Of a DNA stretch of 64,000 nt, positions 25,801 through 31,800 are shown piece after piece (position 1 is the first letter of the stretch; the number at the start of each line of letters is the position of its first letter). This stretch comes from Escherichia coli O157:H7. Its GTDB lineage: Bacteria > Pseudomonadota > Gammaproteobacteria > Enterobacterales > Enterobacteriaceae. The stretch is taken from NCBI RefSeq assembly GCF_013167455.1, contig NZ_CP038328.1; one strand, written 5' to 3'. Made by a program: the position numbers.

Positions 25801-28800
25801 CGTCTGGCGCAGGTACAGAAGCTGCTGCCGGTGGAACTGGCGGCCAGTAAAGGCATTGAGCTGGTGTATGTGAATACCAAAGGGATGAGCGATCCTGTCC
25901 AGATGCTGCGGGCGCTGACAGGAGATGCCGGGTTCGATGACATTTTTGTTTATGCGGCGGTGTCTGCTGTCGTTGAGATGGCTGATGAATTACTGGCGGA
26001 AGATGGCTGTCTGAACTTCTTTGCCGGGCCGACGGATAAAAACTTCAAAGTGCCGTTTAATTTCTACAACGTTCATTACAACAGCACGCACGTCGTCGGT
26101 ACATCCGGCGGTTCAACGGACGACATGAAAGAGGCGATTGCCCTTAGCGCCACAGGGCAGTTACAGCCCTCGTTTATGGTGACCCATATCGGTGGCCTGG
26201 ATGCGGTGCCAGAAACCGTGCTCAATCTGCCGGATATCCCTGGCGGTAAAAAACTCATTTATAACGGCGTGACCATGCCGCTCACTGCCATTGCCGATTT
26301 TGCCGAAAAAGGCAAAACCGATCCGCTGTTTAAAGAGTTGGCGCGGCTGGTTGAGGAAACGCACGGCATCTGGAATGAACAGGCCGAGAAATATCTGCTG
26401 GCACAATTTGGCGTTGATATCGGGGAGGCCGCGCAATGATGTCCCTGGCGTGGCCATTATTTCGCGTTACGGAACAGGCAGCGTTGGCTGCCTGGCCGCA
26501 AACCGGATGTGGCGACAAAAATAAAATTGATGGCCTGGCGGTCACCGCGATGCGCCAGGCATTAAACGACGTCGCTTTTCGTGGACGAGTGGTTATCGGC
26601 GAAGGAGAAATTGACCATGCGCCGATGCTGTGGATTGGCGAAGAGGTGGGCAAAGGCGATGGGCCAGAAGTCGATATCGCGGTTGATCCCATTGAAGGCA
26701 CGCGGATGGTGGCGATGGGGCAGAGCAATGCGCTGGCGGTCATGGCTTTCGCCCCTCGAGATAGCCTGTTACATGCGCCCGATATGTATATGAAAAAGCT
26801 GGTTGTTAATCGACTGGCTGCCGGGGCGATTGATCTGTCTTTGCCTCTGGCGGACAACTTGCGTGACGTGGCGCGGGCGTTAGGTAAACCGCTGGACAAG
26901 CTGCGCATGGTTACGCTGGATAAACCGCGTCTGAGTGCCGCGATTGAAGAAGCAACACAGCTGGGCGTGAAGGTTTTTGCCCTGCCGGATGGCGATGTCG
27001 CCGCCAGCGTGCTGACCTGCTGGCAGGATAATCCTTACGATGTGATGTACACCATCGGCGGTGCGCCGGAAGGCGTGATTTCTGCCTGTGCCGTTAAAGC
27101 ATTAGGCGGGAATATGCAGGCCGAGCTGATTGACTTTTGTCAGGCCAAAGGGGATTACACGGAAAATCGGCAGATTGCAGAGCAGGAGCGCAAGCGTTGC
27201 AAGGCAATGGGTGTTGACGTTAACCGTGTGTACTCGCTCGATGTACTGGTAAGGGGGAACGATATCCTCTTTAGCGCTACGGGCGTCACGGGCGGCGAGT
27301 TGGTGAACGGTATCCAACAGACGGCGAATGGAGTGCGGACGCAGACATTACTGATCGGCGGCGCGGACCAAACGTGTAATATAATAGACTCCCTGTATTG
27401 ATGGTGATCTATCGGAAGACCAATGGCGACGCTGTCAGAAGATGATGTGCTTGAGCAACTGGATGCACAGGACAATTTATTTTCATTTATGAAAACTGCG
27501 CATTCTATTTTGCTCCAGGGGATACGCCAGTTTCTGCCGTCGCTGTTTGTCGATAACGATGAAGAGAGCGTCGAATATGCAGTGAAGCCGTTACTCGCCC
27601 AAAGCGGCCCGCTTGACGATATTGATGTTGCACTGCGTTTGATTTATGCGCTGGGGAAAATGGATAAATGGCTGTACGCCGATATCACGCATTTTTCCCA
27701 GTACTGGCATTACCTGAAAGAACAGGATGAAACGCTCGGATTTGCCGATGACATGACTTGGGATTTTATCAGCAACGTCAATAGCATAACCTGCAATGCG
27801 ACGCTCTATGACGCGTTGAAAGCGATGAAGTTCGCCGATTTCGCCGTCTGGTCAGAGGCGCGTTTTAGCGGAATGGTCAAAACGGCGCTGACGCTGGCAG
27901 TAACGACCACCTTAAAGGAATTAACGCCGTGAAAATTGAATTAACGGTGAATGGGCTGAACGTGCAAGCGCAGTACCATGATGAAGAGATAGAACGCGTG
28001 CATAAACCGTTGCTGCGTATGCTGGCGGCCTTACAGACGGTAAATCCGCAGCGCCGAACCGTGGTTTTTCTTTGCGCTCCGCCGGGGACGGGTAAATCTA
28101 CCCTAACCACCTTCTGGGCATATCTCGCGCAACAAGACCCGGAGCTGCCCGCTATTCAGACGCTCCCGATGGATGGTTTTCACCATTACAATAGCTGGCT
28201 GGATGCGCATCAATTGCGCCCCTTCAAAGGCGCACCAGAGACATTTGACGTTGCGAAACTGGCGGAAAATCTGCGCCAGGTCGTGGAAGGGGATTGTACG
28301 TGGCCGCAGTACGATCGACAAAAGCATGATCCTGTTGAAGATGCGTTGCACGTTACCGCACCAATAATCATCGTCGAAGGAAACTGGCTATTGCTGGATG
28401 ACGATAACTGGCGCCAGCTAGCGCAATTTTGTGATTTCTCGATCTTTATCAATGCGCCAGCTACTGCGTTGCGGGAACGACTGGTGGGGCGCAAGCTGGC
28501 GGGAGGGTTATCGCTGGCAGACGCAGAAGCTTTTTATGACCGTACCGACGGGCCGAATGTTCGCCGGGTGCTGGAAGAGAGTCTGCCTGCAAATTTGACC
28601 TTAATGATGACCGCTACGGGTGAATATCGTCTGGTGGATTAATGTTCCTGATTAGACCATCTTCCAGTCGCACCACACGAGAGAAATGACGCCGGGTAAA
28701 TGCGGCGTCATGACTGATTGCTACGACGCTCGTGCCTCGCTGGCGGCACTTCTCCAGCCAGCTTTCAAACACGCTCAACCAATTTTCGTCAAAATCCCGA

Positions 28801-31800
28801 CTCGGCTCGTCCAGCAGCAATAGTGGCGGAGAGAGTGCTTCCAGGCAGGCGACGGCGACCATCCGTCGCTGCGCACTATGCAGATCCAACGGGTGCGCGC
28901 TGGCAGTGTCTGCTAACTGACAACATTGCAGGGCAGCATGGGTACGTTGAGTGATTTCATCCGCCGGGCATTTTTGCAGTTTCAAACCAAATGCGATCTC
29001 GTCAGCGACGGTGCTGTGAAAAAGTTGGTTTTCCGCTTCCTGAAACAGTACGCCAATCTTTGCCGCGCGCTGGCGGTTTTTCAGGTTTTTCATCGCCTGT
29101 TGTTGCAGCATAACCGTACCGGCTGTGGGCGTAAGAAGACCTGCCATTACTCGTAACAGCGTCGATTTCCCTGCGCCATTGTCGCCGGTCAACGCCAACC
29201 ATTCACCTTGTTTGAGTTGCAGAGAAATGTCGCAAAGACAATCCGTTGCCGCGCCAGGCCAGCGATAAGATATCTGATTTAACGTTAACATAGTGGCTGG
29301 AGCGCTCCGTTTTGCAATTGCCACGCTTGCTGGCAGTAGTTCAGGAAAGGTGTGCGATGACGTTCAAAAAGAATAATCAGCGAACCACGTTCAAACGCCC
29401 AGTGTTGTAAGCGCTGCAACAGCATTTCGCTGGCCTGCGGCGTCAGGCGGCTAAAGGCTTCATCAAGAATTAATAGCTTTGGCTGCATCGCGATGGCGCA
29501 GGCGATGACCACGCGCTGTGTCTCTCCACCGGAGAGTGTTGCCGGGTGACGATGGCGCAACGGCTGGCACTCGGTCAGAGTCAGGGCGGCATCAATCCGC
29601 GCCATAATCTCTGCTTCAGCAAGACACAGATTTTCTGGCCCAAAGGCAACTTCTTCTTCCACGCTAAAGGTACAGCCGGAGAGCTGCAAATAGGGCGATT
29701 GCTGGACGAGCTGGATGGTGGCGGATTGTTCATTAAGCGGGAGATGCCCAATGGGCGTACCGAGGAGCGTCCCCGTGCCTGTTATCTCTCCTGGCAGAAA
29801 GTCCGGATACCAGCCCGCCATCAGCTGTGCCAGCGTACTTTTGCCACTGCCGTTGTCACCAAAGATGGCGACCATCCCCGGTTTGACATAGTGAAAGTCA
29901 TAACAGAACGGAGGATGCGTTGAGTGTGTCGGGCAATAACGGAACTGTTCTAACGTAACCATATCCACGCTCCGAATTCTGTCAGCATCAGCAAGATCAT
30001 GGTGTAACGCGCTACGCGTTGTAGGGTGCTATCGGCTGGTGCCCACAACGTTGTTCGTCGGTTGTGGATCCGAAATGCCCGCATATCCAGCGCCGCACCA
30101 CGGACAGCAAGATCGTTTAGCGCATTGTGTGTTAGCGGAATAGTTAACGCGGGCATCGCACGTAAACGCTGATACCAGCCCTCATCCAGCGGCACGCCGC
30201 GGGCACGCTGCGCTTCATGAATAATCGCTAATTGCCGTTTTAACTGCTCAACGACCAATAACGGCCCGGCAAACAGATAAGCGACGCCCGGCGGCAGGCG
30301 AGAAGCAAACAGAGCGCGGATAAAACATTGCACGGGGACGTACTGCATCCACAACTGTGAGGTTGAAACAATCGCCAGAATCCGCAACCAGAGCGTAATA
30401 GCATGCGTCCAACGCTCCGGCGAACGCGGCGTGCCGCTTAGCCATTCTGTTAGCCAGCCACCGTGTACCAGCCACAGCCCGGCTCCCAGCGAGAACATCA
30501 GCCAGACGACATATTTTGCCCGCCGCCGCGTGGCCTTTAGCGCAATAAGGCAAAAAAAGGTCGCCGCGCTATAGATCGGCAAAATGGTCTGCGCGGGCAG
30601 GATAAGCGTGGTGCAGGCCGCCAATGCCCATAGTGTTAATGAGGTAAATGGATGCATTTAGCGCACGGCAGCCATTGCCGGAAAATGGCGCGTGGTGCGA
30701 ATCGGCAGCTGGCGCAGTAAAAGCCAGACAATCACCGCTGTAAGAGTTTTATCGACCAGGTTCGCGCCTATCACCGTAATCGCCACCGACTCCACCAGGT
30801 TTTGCCCCATCGAGTGCATCCAGGCAACGAACAAATCGGCTCCGCTACCGGTGACACCGCCGAACAGCGCAGTACGCAGCGGTACAGCGACGACCGTTAC
30901 CGCAAGCGTAATAATCACGCCGCTGACAACGACTTTTGGCAGGGTGCGAAACCAACCCGCTCGCGCCAGCCAACCGGCGACCAGGCCGATGACCATCGCG
31001 ACGGGGGCAAAAGCGGCAGCGATCGGGTCGGTCAGTAATCCCCAGAGTAAATTGGTCAGTAAGCCGGTCAGCATCCCGATCACCGGACCAAGCAGTACCG
31101 CGCTAATAAGTGTGCCGATGGAGTCGAGAAATATAGGTAATTTGACCATGCTGGCCAGTTGCCCGCCGATCATATTGATGGCGATAGATATAACGATCAA
31201 CACCAGTGCCTGACTGGAAAAGTGGCTACGCGCCATAAGAAAACCTCTCTGAAAGTAGTTATTTAACGGGGGAAATATGCAACTCGTCGTAACCAGAAAG
31301 CGCGCAAGGTTGGCGGCTAAACGCCAGTTCCTCAAGGCTACCGATCACCAGTTCAAGCGTGGTCCGCACGGTACAGCCGGGCATCATATGACCGCCAAGC
31401 ATCGTGCCGTGTGGATCGGAAACGCAGAGATGAAGATGCTCACCACTCTGTTCCAACGTGCCGTTTAGTGAGATCACTTCGAATGTACCGTTCAGGAGCG
31501 TGGTGCCTTCTTGCCCGGCATAGCGCAAGGCGATGTCAGTCAGGCTACCGGTACAGCCTGCAATCCAGGCGGCATGAAGTTGCTGCTGCTGTGCAAAAGC
31601 GTGTAGCTGGGAAAAAACTTCCTGCCCGGGGAGGAGGCGCAGTGCGTAAAAGCGTGCGGAGGAAGAATATGGGTAGGGCAATGTCATCATTGGAGTACTC
31701 CGAAACTCGGACGTATTACGGATAATATCGACGCTGCATCAGTCATATTCTGATATAAGTCAGGGTTTGTGACGGCACAACGAAAAGATTTTGCTACGCT

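What the first reader, a model, noticed from the sequence alone, without database searches (positions are those of the whole stretch)
28614..29968. Asymmetric ATPase pair: one canonical, one with a degenerate signature motif
The upstream ATPase has Walker A, LSGGE signature and Walker B. The downstream one keeps Walker A and Walker B (LLLLDEP) but its signature region reads LDLHSAQ, so the dimer is predicted to have one competent and one degenerate ATP site. Both are short (~225-227 aa) and lack the C-terminal extension usual in EcfA proteins.
Basis: seen in the sequence. Interest (0 to 1): 0.45.

Follow-up and report, generated by a model that had tools for sequence, protein, structure and literature searches.

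The report
Lopsided ATPase pair in ECF importer
Two adjacent ATPase genes of an accessory E. coli micronutrient-type (ECF) importer are built so that only one of their two shared ATP sites looks catalytically complete; this one-sided design is conserved across several bacterial phyla and could serve as a natural test of how many ATP sites such importers need.

Summary
The window is E. coli O157:H7. Positions 28614-29962 (minus strand) hold two overlapping 225-aa ABC ATPase genes that end a five-gene operon: PCC-domain protein, ECF S component, ECF T component, ATPase 1 (A1), ATPase 2 (A2). A1 has LSGGE. A2 has LHSAQ exactly where LSGGQ should be, with normal Walker A, Walker B and H-loop.

The degeneracy is reciprocal. 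A1, which supplies the Walker motifs to the site completed by A2's bad signature, has Arg201 in the H-loop histidine column. So one composite site is consensus and the other is degenerate.

In 81 of 81 related operons, NBD1 has a canonical signature and NBD2 does not. Two Aeromonas species even have a natural Walker-B Glu-to-Gln change in NBD1. A2 is under purifying selection. Natural A1-A2 fusions show that the two proteins pair.

The short 225-aa form, without a C-terminal domain, is largely confined to Enterobacteriaceae; most other lineages sampled keep 45-65-aa tails.

The operon is present in about 61% of complete E. coli genomes and absent from K-12. Its substrate is unknown, and loss of catalysis at the degenerate site is inferred, not shown. 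I found no description of this in the searchable literature. Interest is moderate.

The parts
31259..31690 (-). First gene of the operon: a 143-aa PCC (PPC/DUF296) domain protein
   Evidence: Pfam PF03479, E 4e-28. It is the orthologue of the solved Salmonella structures 2HX0/2NMU, E 7e-75. A PCC gene lies directly upstream of the S gene in 83 of 89 related loci. His85, His87 and His101 are at least 95% conserved in 84 sequences.
30658..31236 (-). ECF transporter S (substrate-binding) component, 192 aa
   Evidence: Pfam PF12822, E 8e-8. NCBIfam NF045596 'CD3073 family' scores 134 bits, below its cutoff of 180. A family profile hits the solved folate S component FolT at E 5e-4. Identity across phyla is 56-77%.
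29950..30657 (-). ECF T (scaffold/coupling) component, 235 aa
   Evidence: Pfam CbiQ hit is weak, E 5.7e-4. The AF2 model (pLDDT 83) has EcfT/CbiQ chains of solved ECF transporters as its top 10 Foldseek matches, followed by a drop to noise. A149, Q150, R153 and G154 (the Ala-Arg-Gly coupling motif) are invariant in 17 orthologues.
29285..29962 (-). ATPase 1 (A1, NBD1), 225 aa. Canonical signature, non-canonical H-loop and D-loop. Overlaps the T gene by 13 nt.
   Evidence: Its best NCBIfam family is ECF_ATPase_1 at 120 bits, below the cutoff of 315.
29834..29860 (-). A1 Walker A, GDNGSGKST (Lys41)
   Evidence: The GK[ST] core is kept in every NBD1 listed.
29522..29536 (-). A1 signature LSGGE (residues 143-147). 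It completes the consensus site together with A2's Walker motifs.
   Evidence: NBD1 reads LSGG[E/Q] in 81 of 81 loci.
29456..29476 (-). A1 Walker B LLILDEA (Asp167-Glu168), followed by the D-loop SRLT (29441-29452), which lacks the usual Asp
   Evidence: NBD1 reads LDE in 78 of 81 loci and LDQ in two Aeromonas species.
29357..29368 (-). A1 'FERH' (residues 199-202). Glu200-Arg201 sit in the columns of the H-loop Ser/Thr-His. His202 is the next, variable, position.
   Evidence: The beta-strand register in the AF2 model agrees (A1 195-200 versus A2 188-192, an offset of 7).
28614..29291 (-). ATPase 2 (A2, NBD2), 225 aa. Degenerate signature with canonical Walker A, Walker B and H-loop. Overlaps A1 by 7 nt (ATGTTAA). 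Its 3' end overlaps the convergent yggC gene by 29 bp.
   Evidence: Its best NCBIfam family is ECF_ATPase_2 at 149 bits, below the cutoff of 330.
29160..29186 (-). A2 Walker A, GDNGAGKST (Lys42)
28869..28883 (-). A2 degenerate signature LHSAQ (residues 137-141), in place of LSGGQ
   Evidence: Enterobacteriaceae read LH[S/T/A]AQ in 112 of 112 full-length homologues. NBD2 is non-canonical in 81 of 81 loci.
28803..28823 (-). A2 Walker B LLLLDEP (Asp161-Glu162), followed by the D-loop SRDFD (28788-28802)
   Evidence: NBD2 keeps Asp-Glu in 81 of 81 loci.
28707..28718 (-). A2 canonical H-loop ISHD (His194)
   Evidence: NBD2 reads SHD 75, THD 3, CHD 2 and THN 1 among 81 loci.

Best explanation
The two genes encode the heterodimeric motor (A1 = NBD1, A2 = NBD2) of a dedicated ECF-type ABC importer. 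The importer is made by a five-gene operon: PCC protein, S component, T component, A1, A2.

In an ABC dimer each ATP is held between the Walker A, Walker B and H-loop of one NBD and the signature motif of the other.

- Site II is built from A2 (Lys42, Asp161-Glu162, Ser193-His194) plus the A1 signature LSGGE. It is a consensus site and is the predicted catalytic site.
- Site I is built from A1 (Lys41, Asp167-Glu168, but Glu200-Arg201 where Ser/Thr-His should be) plus the A2 signature LHSAQ. It is degenerate. It should still bind ATP, because the A-loop Tyr9, P-loop Lys, Q-loop Gln and Walker B Asp are all kept. It is predicted to hydrolyse ATP slowly or not at all.

Proposed cycle, inferred by analogy with solved ECF modules and with heterodimeric ABC exporters:
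1. ATP binding at both sites closes the NBD dimer.
2. Closure drives the T-component coupling helices and resets or expels the S component.
3. Hydrolysis at site II alone reopens the motor.
4. ATP held at site I acts as a latch that keeps A1 and A2 associated.

The latch may be what allowed Enterobacteriaceae to lose the C-terminal dimerisation domains that other lineages keep. This last point is speculative.

Shown here: gene identities, motif states, pairing, conservation, polarity, co-variation and purifying selection. Inferred: catalytic asymmetry, the latch role and the direction of transport. Unknown: the substrate and the role of the PCC protein.
For: Motif placement rests on HMMER against solved ABC proteins, phmmer motif tables, MAFFT L-INS-i of NBD1 and NBD2 together and direct translation.

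The AF2 model of A1+A2 has mean pLDDT 91.5. Its pre-H-loop strands are offset by 7 residues, which places A1 Arg201 opposite A2 His194.

Operon identity: RefSeq annotation; Pfam and NCBIfam; T-component fold matches restricted to EcfT/CbiQ; the best single-NBD fold match is CbiO 5x40_A at rmsd 1.6 A.

A1 and A2 act together. Their genes overlap by 7 nt. Natural A1-A2 fusions (P0123, P0266, P0183) and T-A1-A2 fusions (P0134, P0145, L079) occur in the same PCC-S-T context.

Conservation: NBD1 has a canonical signature in 81 of 81 loci, NBD2 in 0 of 81. NBD2 has an [S/T/C]H H-loop and Walker B Asp-Glu in 81 of 81. In NBD1 the Glu-Arg/Lys/Gln pair is conserved and the following residue is variable. 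The loci span Enterobacterales, Aeromonas, Beta- and Alphaproteobacteria, Desulfobacterota, Synergistota, Spirochaetota and Chloroflexota.

A natural Walker-B Glu-to-Gln change in NBD1 occurs in Aeromonas sobria and A. finlandensis.

Among 141 fused ECF-type relatives, 95 have NBD1 canonical and NBD2 degenerate, against 2 with the reverse. NBD1 Walker B departs from Asp-Glu in 14 of those 95; NBD2 never does. Co-variation of NBD2 signature with NBD1 H-loop gives odds ratio 41, p = 1.5e-13.

Purifying selection: A2 dN/dS is 0.08-0.17, similar to A1 and T. LH[S/T/A]AQ is invariant in pattern in 112 Enterobacteriaceae homologues. The pair is intact in 3317 of 5426 complete E. coli genomes.
Against: In E. 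coli, A1 keeps the catalytic Glu168, and His202 lies right next to Arg201. Residual or even full hydrolysis at site I is therefore not excluded.

LHSAQ keeps the Leu and Gln, and the conserved His138 might partly replace the signature Ser.

In the best-studied canonical ECF module, either single Walker-B Glu-to-Gln mutant abolishes ATPase activity and transport (PMC10368641). Running on one catalytic site would therefore depart from the only tested ECF paradigm.

A1's D-loop (SRLT, no Asp) contacts the 'consensus' site, so that site is not perfectly canonical either.

The co-variation test is not corrected for phylogeny. The fused-protein sample was retrieved with A2 as the query, which may favour A2-like second domains.
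Confidence: 0.7

Rival explanations
1. Both ATP sites are catalytically competent. On this view LH[S/T]AQ in A2 and Glu-Arg(-His) in A1 are tolerated lineage-specific variants, and the transporter hydrolyses two ATP per cycle like canonical ECF modules.
For: A1 keeps Walker A Lys41, Walker B Asp167-Glu168 and Q-loop Gln88, and in E. coli has a nearby His202. The canonical ECF module needs both catalytic glutamates (PMC10368641).
Against: His202 is not conserved: the position reads N, T, R, A, S, K, Q and others across orthologues. NBD2 signatures drift as far as LSLAW, LDYYL and FGYSE while NBD1 stays LSGG[E/Q] in 81 of 81 loci. Two Aeromonas species have a natural Glu-to-Gln change in NBD1. 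All deviations fall on the same composite site and co-vary.
Confidence: 0.15
2. Site I has lost nucleotide binding altogether, or binds something other than ATP. A1 would then be a structural or regulatory subunit rather than an ATP latch.
For: A1 is the more divergent NBD, with lower family scores (120 against 149 bits) and a non-canonical D-loop and H-loop.
Against: The Walker A GxxGxGK[S/T] core, the A-loop Tyr9, the Q-loop Gln and the Walker B Asp are kept in NBD1 in the orthologues listed. That degree of conservation is hard to explain without nucleotide binding.
Confidence: 0.08
3. A2 is a decaying gene remnant, and the transporter works with an A1 homodimer or not at all.
For: The signature is degenerate and the protein is short. 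The island is missing from 39% of E. coli genomes, including K-12.
Against: A2 dN/dS is 0.08-0.17. Its Walker A, Walker B and H-loop are perfectly canonical in 81 of 81 loci. The ORF is intact in 3317 genomes. It is conserved across phyla and fused in-frame to A1 in several lineages.
Confidence: 0.02
4. A1 and A2 do not form a heterodimer. Each would form a homodimer or serve a different transporter.
For: None specific. Homodimeric ATPases exist in other dedicated ECF systems such as BioM and CbiO (established knowledge; CbiO dimer 5x40).
Against: The gene order T-A1-A2 is fixed and the genes overlap. Natural A1-A2 and T-A1-A2 fusions always have the same order. An A2 homodimer would have two degenerate sites, and an A1 homodimer would have no H-loop histidine.
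Confidence: 0.03

Closest known systems
Dedicated (group I) ECF-type ABC importers, e.g. CbiMNQO, BioMNY, QrtTUVW
   Same: The S, T and ATPase genes sit in one operon and no solute-binding-protein gene is present. The T component has the EcfT/CbiQ fold. The best single-NBD fold match is CbiO (5x40_A, rmsd 1.6 A, 30% identity).
   Different: This system has two different ATPases with one built-in degenerate site, a conserved PCC-domain gene as the first cistron, and, in Enterobacteriaceae, no C-terminal ATPase domain. The S component belongs to none of the named substrate families; only NCBIfam 'CD3073 family' is hit, below its cutoff.
Group II ECF modules (EcfA/EcfA'/EcfT of Lactobacillus, Thermotoga; PDB 4huq, 5jsz, 8bms)
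   Same: A heterodimeric A/A' motor sits on a T scaffold. Both ATPases score best against the ECF_ATPase_1 and ECF_ATPase_2 models.
   Different: In the canonical module the nucleotides engage an LSGGQ signature motif supplied by the partner ATPase, and both Walker-B glutamates are required for ATPase activity and transport (PMC10368641). Its ATPases are about 280 aa with a C-terminal domain. Here one site is degenerate, the ATPases are 225 aa, and the scores fall far below the curated cutoffs (120 and 149 bits against 315 and 330).
Heterodimeric ABC exporters with a consensus and a degenerate site (TM287/288, TAP1/2, CFTR, MsRv1273c/72c)
   Same: The logic is the same: the non-consensus signature in one NBD and the non-consensus catalytic residues in the other NBD fall on the same composite site. 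In TM287/288 the degenerate site keeps nucleotide bound and keeps the NBDs in contact (PMC3971661).
   Different: Those are exporters with a type IV fold and fused transmembrane domains. Here the NBDs are separate soluble subunits of a type III (ECF) importer. The Walker B Glu is retained in E. coli A1, whereas TM287/288 has Asp in its place.
Fused two-NBD importer ATPases with one degenerate site (RbsA, NupO and related)
   Same: Both are importer motors in which one of two non-identical NBD sites deviates from consensus (PMC11466899).
   Different: In RbsA and NupO the second Walker A lysine is lost, so nucleotide binding itself is compromised. They serve type II importers that use a binding protein. 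Here both P-loops are intact and the transporter is ECF-type.
Fused 'duplicated' ECF-type ATPases of 460-600 aa (YkoD-like, by my recollection; no sequence comparison with YkoD was made)
   Same: Ninety-five of 141 such representatives show the same polarity: NBD1 has a canonical signature with an xEH, xEQ or xER H-loop, and NBD2 has a degenerate signature with an [S/T]H H-loop. Their best NCBIfam families are the ECF ATPase models.
   Different: The E. coli pair is the split form. Most fused relatives belong to other S-component families, and I did not examine their contexts.
TCDB 3.A.1.31 'Unknown-ABC1' family (HtsTUV)
   Same: It is an ECF-type family of unknown substrate listed in PMC3654945.
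   Different: This is a lead only. No HtsTUV sequence was available, so identity with this system was not tested.

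Membership tests
ECF-type (type III) ABC importer | Membrane S component with the ECF S-component signature | tested here: met
   Pfam PF12822, E 8e-8. A family profile hits the solved FolT S components at E 5e-4 and 1e-3.
ECF-type (type III) ABC importer | T component with the EcfT/CbiQ fold and a conserved Arg motif in the coupling helix | tested here: met
   The top 10 Foldseek PDB matches are all EcfT/CbiQ chains (probability 1.00, TM 0.45-0.57), followed by noise. The Pfam CbiQ hit is weak, E 5.7e-4. A149, Q150, R153 and G154 are invariant in 17 orthologues.
ECF-type (type III) ABC importer | Two ABC ATPase subunits of the ECF/CbiO type | tested here: inconclusive
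   The best NCBIfam families are ECF_ATPase_1 and ECF_ATPase_2, but at 120 and 149 bits against curated cutoffs of 315 and 330. The best single-NBD fold match is CbiO at rmsd 1.6 A. They are ECF-like in rank but are not equivalogs.
ECF-type (type III) ABC importer | No extracytoplasmic solute-binding protein gene in the operon | tested here: met
   The operon holds five genes (PCC, S, T, A1, A2) between epd and yggC, and none is a binding protein.
ECF-type (type III) ABC importer | C-terminal helical domain on each ATPase that holds the A/A' dimer together | tested here: not met
   E. coli A2 stops at profile position 231 of 279, and A1 and A2 end after their last beta-strands. The tail is present in Proteus, Budvicia and Chloroflexota A2 orthologues, where the profile is covered to about 258 of 279.
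ECF-type (type III) ABC importer | ATP-dependent uptake of a substrate bound by the S component | not testable with these tools
   The substrate is unknown. No riboswitch was found and no recurrent neighbouring gene.
Group I (dedicated) ECF transporter | The S gene is co-transcribed with its own T and ATPase genes | tested here: met
   The genes are adjacent or overlapping (S/T 0 nt apart, T/A1 overlap 13 nt, A1/A2 overlap 7 nt). The same order holds in the 89 loci examined.
ABC NBD heterodimer with one consensus and one degenerate ATP site | Two non-identical NBDs that pair | tested here: met
   The two proteins are distinct. Natural A1-A2 fusions occur in a fixed order. Physical pairing of the E. 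coli proteins is inferred.
ABC NBD heterodimer with one consensus and one degenerate ATP site | Non-consensus signature motif in one NBD only | tested here: met
   A2 reads LHSAQ and A1 reads LSGGE. The polarity holds in 81 of 81 loci.
ABC NBD heterodimer with one consensus and one degenerate ATP site | A matching non-consensus H-loop in the partner NBD, on the same composite site | tested here: met
   A1 Arg201 lies in the His column. Co-variation gives odds ratio 41.
ABC NBD heterodimer with one consensus and one degenerate ATP site | Loss of the Walker-B catalytic Glu in the NBD that contributes to the degenerate site | tested here: not met
   E. coli A1 keeps Glu168. The Glu is lost (LDQ) only in two Aeromonas orthologues and in 14 of 95 fused relatives.
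ABC NBD heterodimer with one consensus and one degenerate ATP site | The degenerate site binds ATP but does not hydrolyse it | not testable with these tools
   This needs ATPase or trapping assays with single-site mutants.
NCBIfam NF045596 (CD3073 family putative ECF S component, equivalog) | Whole-protein score at or above the curated cutoff (180 bits) | tested here: not met
   The score is 134.2 bits. The S component is related to this family but is not a member by NCBI's criterion.
TCDB 3.A.1.31 HtsTUV | Sequence homology of the S, T and ATPase proteins to the TCDB reference proteins | not tested
   No reference sequences were available. The family is only named in PMC3654945.

The most novel reading that the evidence does not exclude
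PCC-linked ECF importers may form an undescribed subclass of ECF transporters with two distinctive features. First, a soluble PCC-domain protein with an invariant His85/His87/His101 cluster would be an obligatory fifth component, for example a cytoplasmic acceptor or processing enzyme for the imported compound. Second, the motor would run on a single catalytic ATP site with a permanently ATP-latched second site. That is unlike the canonical ECF module, where both sites are essential, and it would explain how the Enterobacteriaceae versions could lose both C-terminal dimerisation domains.
Probability: 0.3. Interest if true: 0.65.

Novelty: new variant of a known kind. Interest (0 to 1): 0.42.

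Why it matters
ECF transporters are studied as antibacterial targets and as a mechanistically unusual ABC class in which the S component topples in the membrane. How many ATP molecules are used per cycle, and whether the two sites act in sequence, are still open questions. In the one well-tested module both catalytic glutamates are required (PMC10368641).

A widespread natural family with one-sided degeneracy, including natural Glu-to-Gln variants, provides a ready-made system for asking what each site does. It also sits in a genetically tractable organism.

The result corrects the working assumption, which I state from my own knowledge, that E. coli has no ECF transporter. K-12 lacks one, but about 61% of complete E. 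coli genomes, including O157:H7 and O104:H4, carry this one.

Finally, it gives the first genomic-context clue to the function of the bacterial PCC/DUF296 domain, which is otherwise known only from plant AHL proteins.

Tried and rejected
- Substrate inference failed. Rfam found nothing at E <= 1 in 28000-32300. The promoter and terminator scans were no better than shuffles. Clustering of flanking genes across 30 diverse loci found no neighbour that recurs beyond lineage synteny; TAXI-TRAP genes appear in only 3 loci.
- Literature searches found no paper in the held library on degenerate sites in ECF ATPases, on CD3073, on DUF296 together with ECF, or on bacterial PCC function, where all hits concern plant AHL proteins.
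- The founding comparative-genomics paper on ECF transporters (Rodionov et al. 2009, cited in PMC3654945) could not be retrieved under the PMC id I tried. Prior naming of this family cannot be excluded.
- The sequence search of T against the PDB gave only noise. A fold search was needed instead.
- The listing of cluster members gave almost no names for the fused relatives.
- I considered and rejected three ideas. A canonical LSGGQ elsewhere in A2: none exists. His202 as a shifted H-loop histidine: the position is not conserved. A2 as a pseudogene: dN/dS and conservation argue against it.
- The Proteus A1 tail did not align to the ECF C-terminal profile region. Its homology to the EcfA C-terminal domain is therefore unproven for A1.

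Full report
WHAT IS THERE. The window is E. coli O157:H7. Positions 28400-31900 are 100% identical to many O157 genomes. On the minus strand, between epd (plus strand) and yggC (plus strand), lies a compact five-gene operon. RefSeq annotates it as a PPC domain-containing protein (31259-31690), an ECF transporter S component (30658-31236), an ECF T component (29950-30657) and two 'ABC transporter ATP-binding protein' genes of 225 aa each: A1 at 29285-29962 and A2 at 28614-29291. The genes are tightly coupled. S and T abut, T and A1 overlap by 13 nt, and A1 and A2 overlap by 7 nt (ATGTTAA). The 3' end of A2 overlaps the convergent yggC gene by 29 bp.

CHECK OF THE OBSERVATION. A1 has Walker A GDNGSGKST, signature LSGGE (29522-29536) and Walker B LLILDEA. 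A2 has Walker A GDNGAGKST, Walker B LLLLDEP and H-loop ISHD, but reads LHSAQ (28869-28883) where the signature should be. HMMER aligns A2 'LDLHSAQRRMVAVA' column for column with 'QLSGGQKQRIAIA' of ABCB1/ABCB4. MAFFT L-INS-i aligns it with LSGGE of A1 and of 20 other NBD1 sequences. No other LSGGQ-like motif exists in A2. Both proteins are short. A2 covers only positions 5-231 of the 279-position ECF_ATPase_2 profile and residues 5-221 of the 279-residue EcfA chain 4huq_B. An AF2 model of A1 joined to A2 (mean pLDDT 91.5) ends each NBD right after its last beta-strands.

IDENTITY OF THE SYSTEM. The S component matches Pfam ECF_trnsprt (E 8e-8). It also matches NCBIfam 'CD3073 family putative ECF S component', but below the cutoff (134 against 180 bits). 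A family profile weakly hits the solved folate S component FolT. T has only a weak CbiQ hit. However, its AF2 model (pLDDT 83) finds EcfT/CbiQ chains of solved ECF transporters as its ten best matches, followed by a drop to noise, and it keeps the invariant Ala-x-x-x-Arg-Gly coupling motif. The ATPases score best against the two ECF ATPase models, far below the equivalog cutoffs. The best single-NBD structural match is CbiO, at rmsd 1.6 A. This is therefore a divergent, dedicated (group-I-like) ECF-type importer.

THE ASYMMETRY IS RECIPROCAL. In an ABC dimer the A2 signature completes the ATP site whose Walker A, Walker B and H-loop come from A1. A1 is deviant in exactly that region. Its 'FERH' (29357-29368) aligns ungapped with A2 'ISHD'. 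Glu200 falls in the Ser/Thr column and Arg201 in the histidine column, according to phmmer, MAFFT and the strand register of the AF2 model (the strand begins at A1 residue 195 and A2 residue 188, an offset of 7). His202 is not conserved: orthologues have N, T, R, A, S, K, Q and other residues there. The A1 D-loop is SRLT and lacks the usual Asp. A1 keeps the A-loop Tyr9, P-loop Lys41, Q-loop Gln88 and Walker B Asp167-Glu168, so nucleotide binding is expected to persist. The other site, made of the A2 Walker motifs, His194 and the A1 LSGGE, is consensus.

CONSERVATION AND GENERALITY. In 112 full-length Enterobacteriaceae homologues the A2 motif is LHTAQ, LHSAQ or LHAAQ. The S component is very conserved (56-77% identity across phyla), so I used its alignment to fetch 80 loci from reference genomes and added metagenomic loci found through distant ATPase homologues. 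Of 89 loci, 83 have a PCC gene directly upstream of S. The order is always PCC-S-T-NBD1-NBD2, with the ATPases either split, fused to each other, or fused to T as well.

In all 81 loci with two complete NBDs, NBD1 has LSGG[E/Q] and NBD2 does not. The NBD2 motifs are LHAGQ, LHTAQ, LNSAE, LDAGQ and others, ranging as far as LSLAW, LDYYL and FGYSE. NBD2 always has Walker B Asp-Glu and an [S/T/C]H H-loop. NBD1 has Glu-Arg, Glu-Lys or Glu-Gln in the H-loop columns in Proteobacteria, while Chloroflexota still have Thr-His or Glu-His. Aeromonas sobria and A. finlandensis carry LDQ in NBD1. That is the classic hydrolysis-dead Glu-to-Gln substitution, occurring naturally in exactly the NBD predicted to serve the degenerate site.

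Among 141 fused two-NBD ECF-type representatives retrieved with A2, 95 show the same polarity, 2 show the reverse and 32 have two canonical signatures. A canonical NBD1 H-loop accompanies a canonical NBD2 signature in 28 of 32 proteins, but a degenerate one in only 13 of 89 (odds ratio 41, p = 1.5e-13; not corrected for phylogeny).

A2 IS NOT DECAYING, AND A1 AND A2 PAIR. NG86 dN/dS for A2 is 0.17 against E. whittamii and about 0.08-0.12 against Citrobacter, Salmonella, Klebsiella and Kluyvera, although dS is near saturation in those comparisons. These values are comparable with A1 and T. S is the most constrained gene, at 0.03-0.06 in most comparisons. The pair is intact in 3317 of 5426 complete E. 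coli genomes. Natural fusions in the fixed order A1-A2 (P0123, P0266, P0183) or T-A1-A2 (P0134, P0145, L079), in the same operon context, are Rosetta-stone evidence that the two NBDs work in one complex.

THE MISSING C-TERMINAL DOMAIN. After the NBD core, Enterobacteriaceae have 0-3 residues in A1 and 0-15 in A2. Budviciaceae, Proteus, Providencia, Chloroflexota, Spirochaetota and Desulfobacterota members have about 45-65 residues on both, and two Aeromonas species have about 51 and 37. For A2 orthologues and for Chloroflexota A1, the tail extends the match into the ECF-ATPase profile to about position 258 of 279. For Proteus A1 the tail does not align. The short form is therefore largely restricted to Enterobacteriaceae, with one Wohlfahrtiimonas genome and one Aeromonas genome also short. 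I interpret it as a loss; this is an interpretation, because no phylogeny was built. Since the degenerate site is present in long-tailed and short-tailed lineages alike, it probably predates the loss.

MECHANISM PROPOSED. Structures of the canonical ECF module show that ATP-driven NBD closure pushes the T coupling helices and expels or resets the S component (PMC10368641). By analogy with those structures, and with heterodimeric exporters whose degenerate site retains nucleotide and keeps the NBDs in contact (PMC3971661), I propose that site II hydrolyses ATP once per cycle while site I holds ATP as a latch. The latch may have made the C-terminal dimerisation domains dispensable in Enterobacteriaceae. 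These steps are inferences. In the canonical module either single Glu-to-Gln mutant kills activity, so if the inference is right this family departs from the only tested ECF paradigm. That departure is the main reason for interest.

WHAT REMAINS UNKNOWN. The substrate is unknown. No riboswitch was found and no gene neighbour recurs. The S family has no characterised member that I could find. The role of the PCC protein is also unknown. It is the orthologue of the structural-genomics entries 2HX0 and 2NMU, keeps an invariant His85/His87/His101 cluster, and all retrievable literature on the domain concerns plant AHL proteins. I could not retrieve the founding comparative-genomics paper on ECF transporters under the PMC id I tried, nor any TCDB HtsTUV sequences, so prior naming of this family cannot be excluded.

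VERDICT. The system is an ECF importer variant with a conserved, directional consensus/degenerate pair of ATP sites. Conceptually it belongs to a phenomenon well known in ABC proteins, but it was not described for ECF transporters in the literature I could search. Interest is moderate (0.42).

Noticed in passing
window 31259-31690 (-); loci L002-L091: A PCC/DUF296-domain gene is the first cistron of this ECF operon in 83 of 89 loci across several phyla. His85, His87 and His101, together with E71, D92 and E113, are at least 95% conserved. The protein is the orthologue of the uncharacterised PDB entries 2HX0 and 2NMU. This fixed association between the PCC domain and an ECF transporter is not described in any paper I could find.
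   Followed up: partly
window 28574-31840: This segment is a presence/absence island, found in 3330 of 5426 complete E. coli genomes. In K-12 MG1655 the 3267-bp segment is replaced by 132 bp, which also changes the last ~23 codons of yggC. The yggC flank is only 93% identical between O157 and K-12, whereas the epd flank is 99% identical.
   Followed up: partly
window 28614-28642: The 3' ends of A2 (minus strand) and yggC (plus strand) overlap convergently by 29 bp, and no terminator-like site lies between them. The two transcripts may interfere with each other.
   Followed up: no
L072 (Aeromonas sobria) 7268-8095; L073 (A. finlandensis) 7268-8095: NBD1 has Walker B LLILDQAF, a natural catalytic Glu-to-Gln substitution, together with LSGGQ and an LLEQR H-loop region.
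   Followed up: partly
L012 (Escherichia albertii NBRC 107761) 7269-7913: The A1 ORF is interrupted: a 156-aa ORF is followed by a gap of about 170 nt before A2. This may be a pseudogene or a sequencing error in this strain.
   Followed up: no
L004-L008, L079; P0134, P0145: Triple fusions T-NBD1-NBD2 (652-827 aa) and double fusions NBD1-NBD2 (460-503 aa) occur in the same family. The P0134 loci (L004-L006) have the S gene but no PCC gene upstream.
   Followed up: partly
window 30658-31236 (-); alignment A1: The S component is far more conserved than the ATPases. It is 56-77% identical across phyla with dN/dS of 0.03-0.06 in most comparisons, while A2 falls to about 35% identity. This suggests a very specific and widely available substrate.
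   Followed up: partly
L007 1889-4735; L011 7782-10796; L050: TAXI-type TRAP transporter genes (NMT1_3 plus DctM) lie immediately next to the module in three loci. In L007 the DctM gene overlaps the PCC gene start.
   Followed up: no
E. coli genome search: One of about 3330 copies of the island lies on a plasmid record, and a few genomes carry two copies.
   Followed up: no
window 29441-29452 (-): The A1 D-loop reads SRLT and lacks the conserved Asp. It is SRLTP throughout the proteobacterial members, whereas Chloroflexota and Rhizobiales members keep xxLD. This D-loop contacts the otherwise consensus site.
   Followed up: partly
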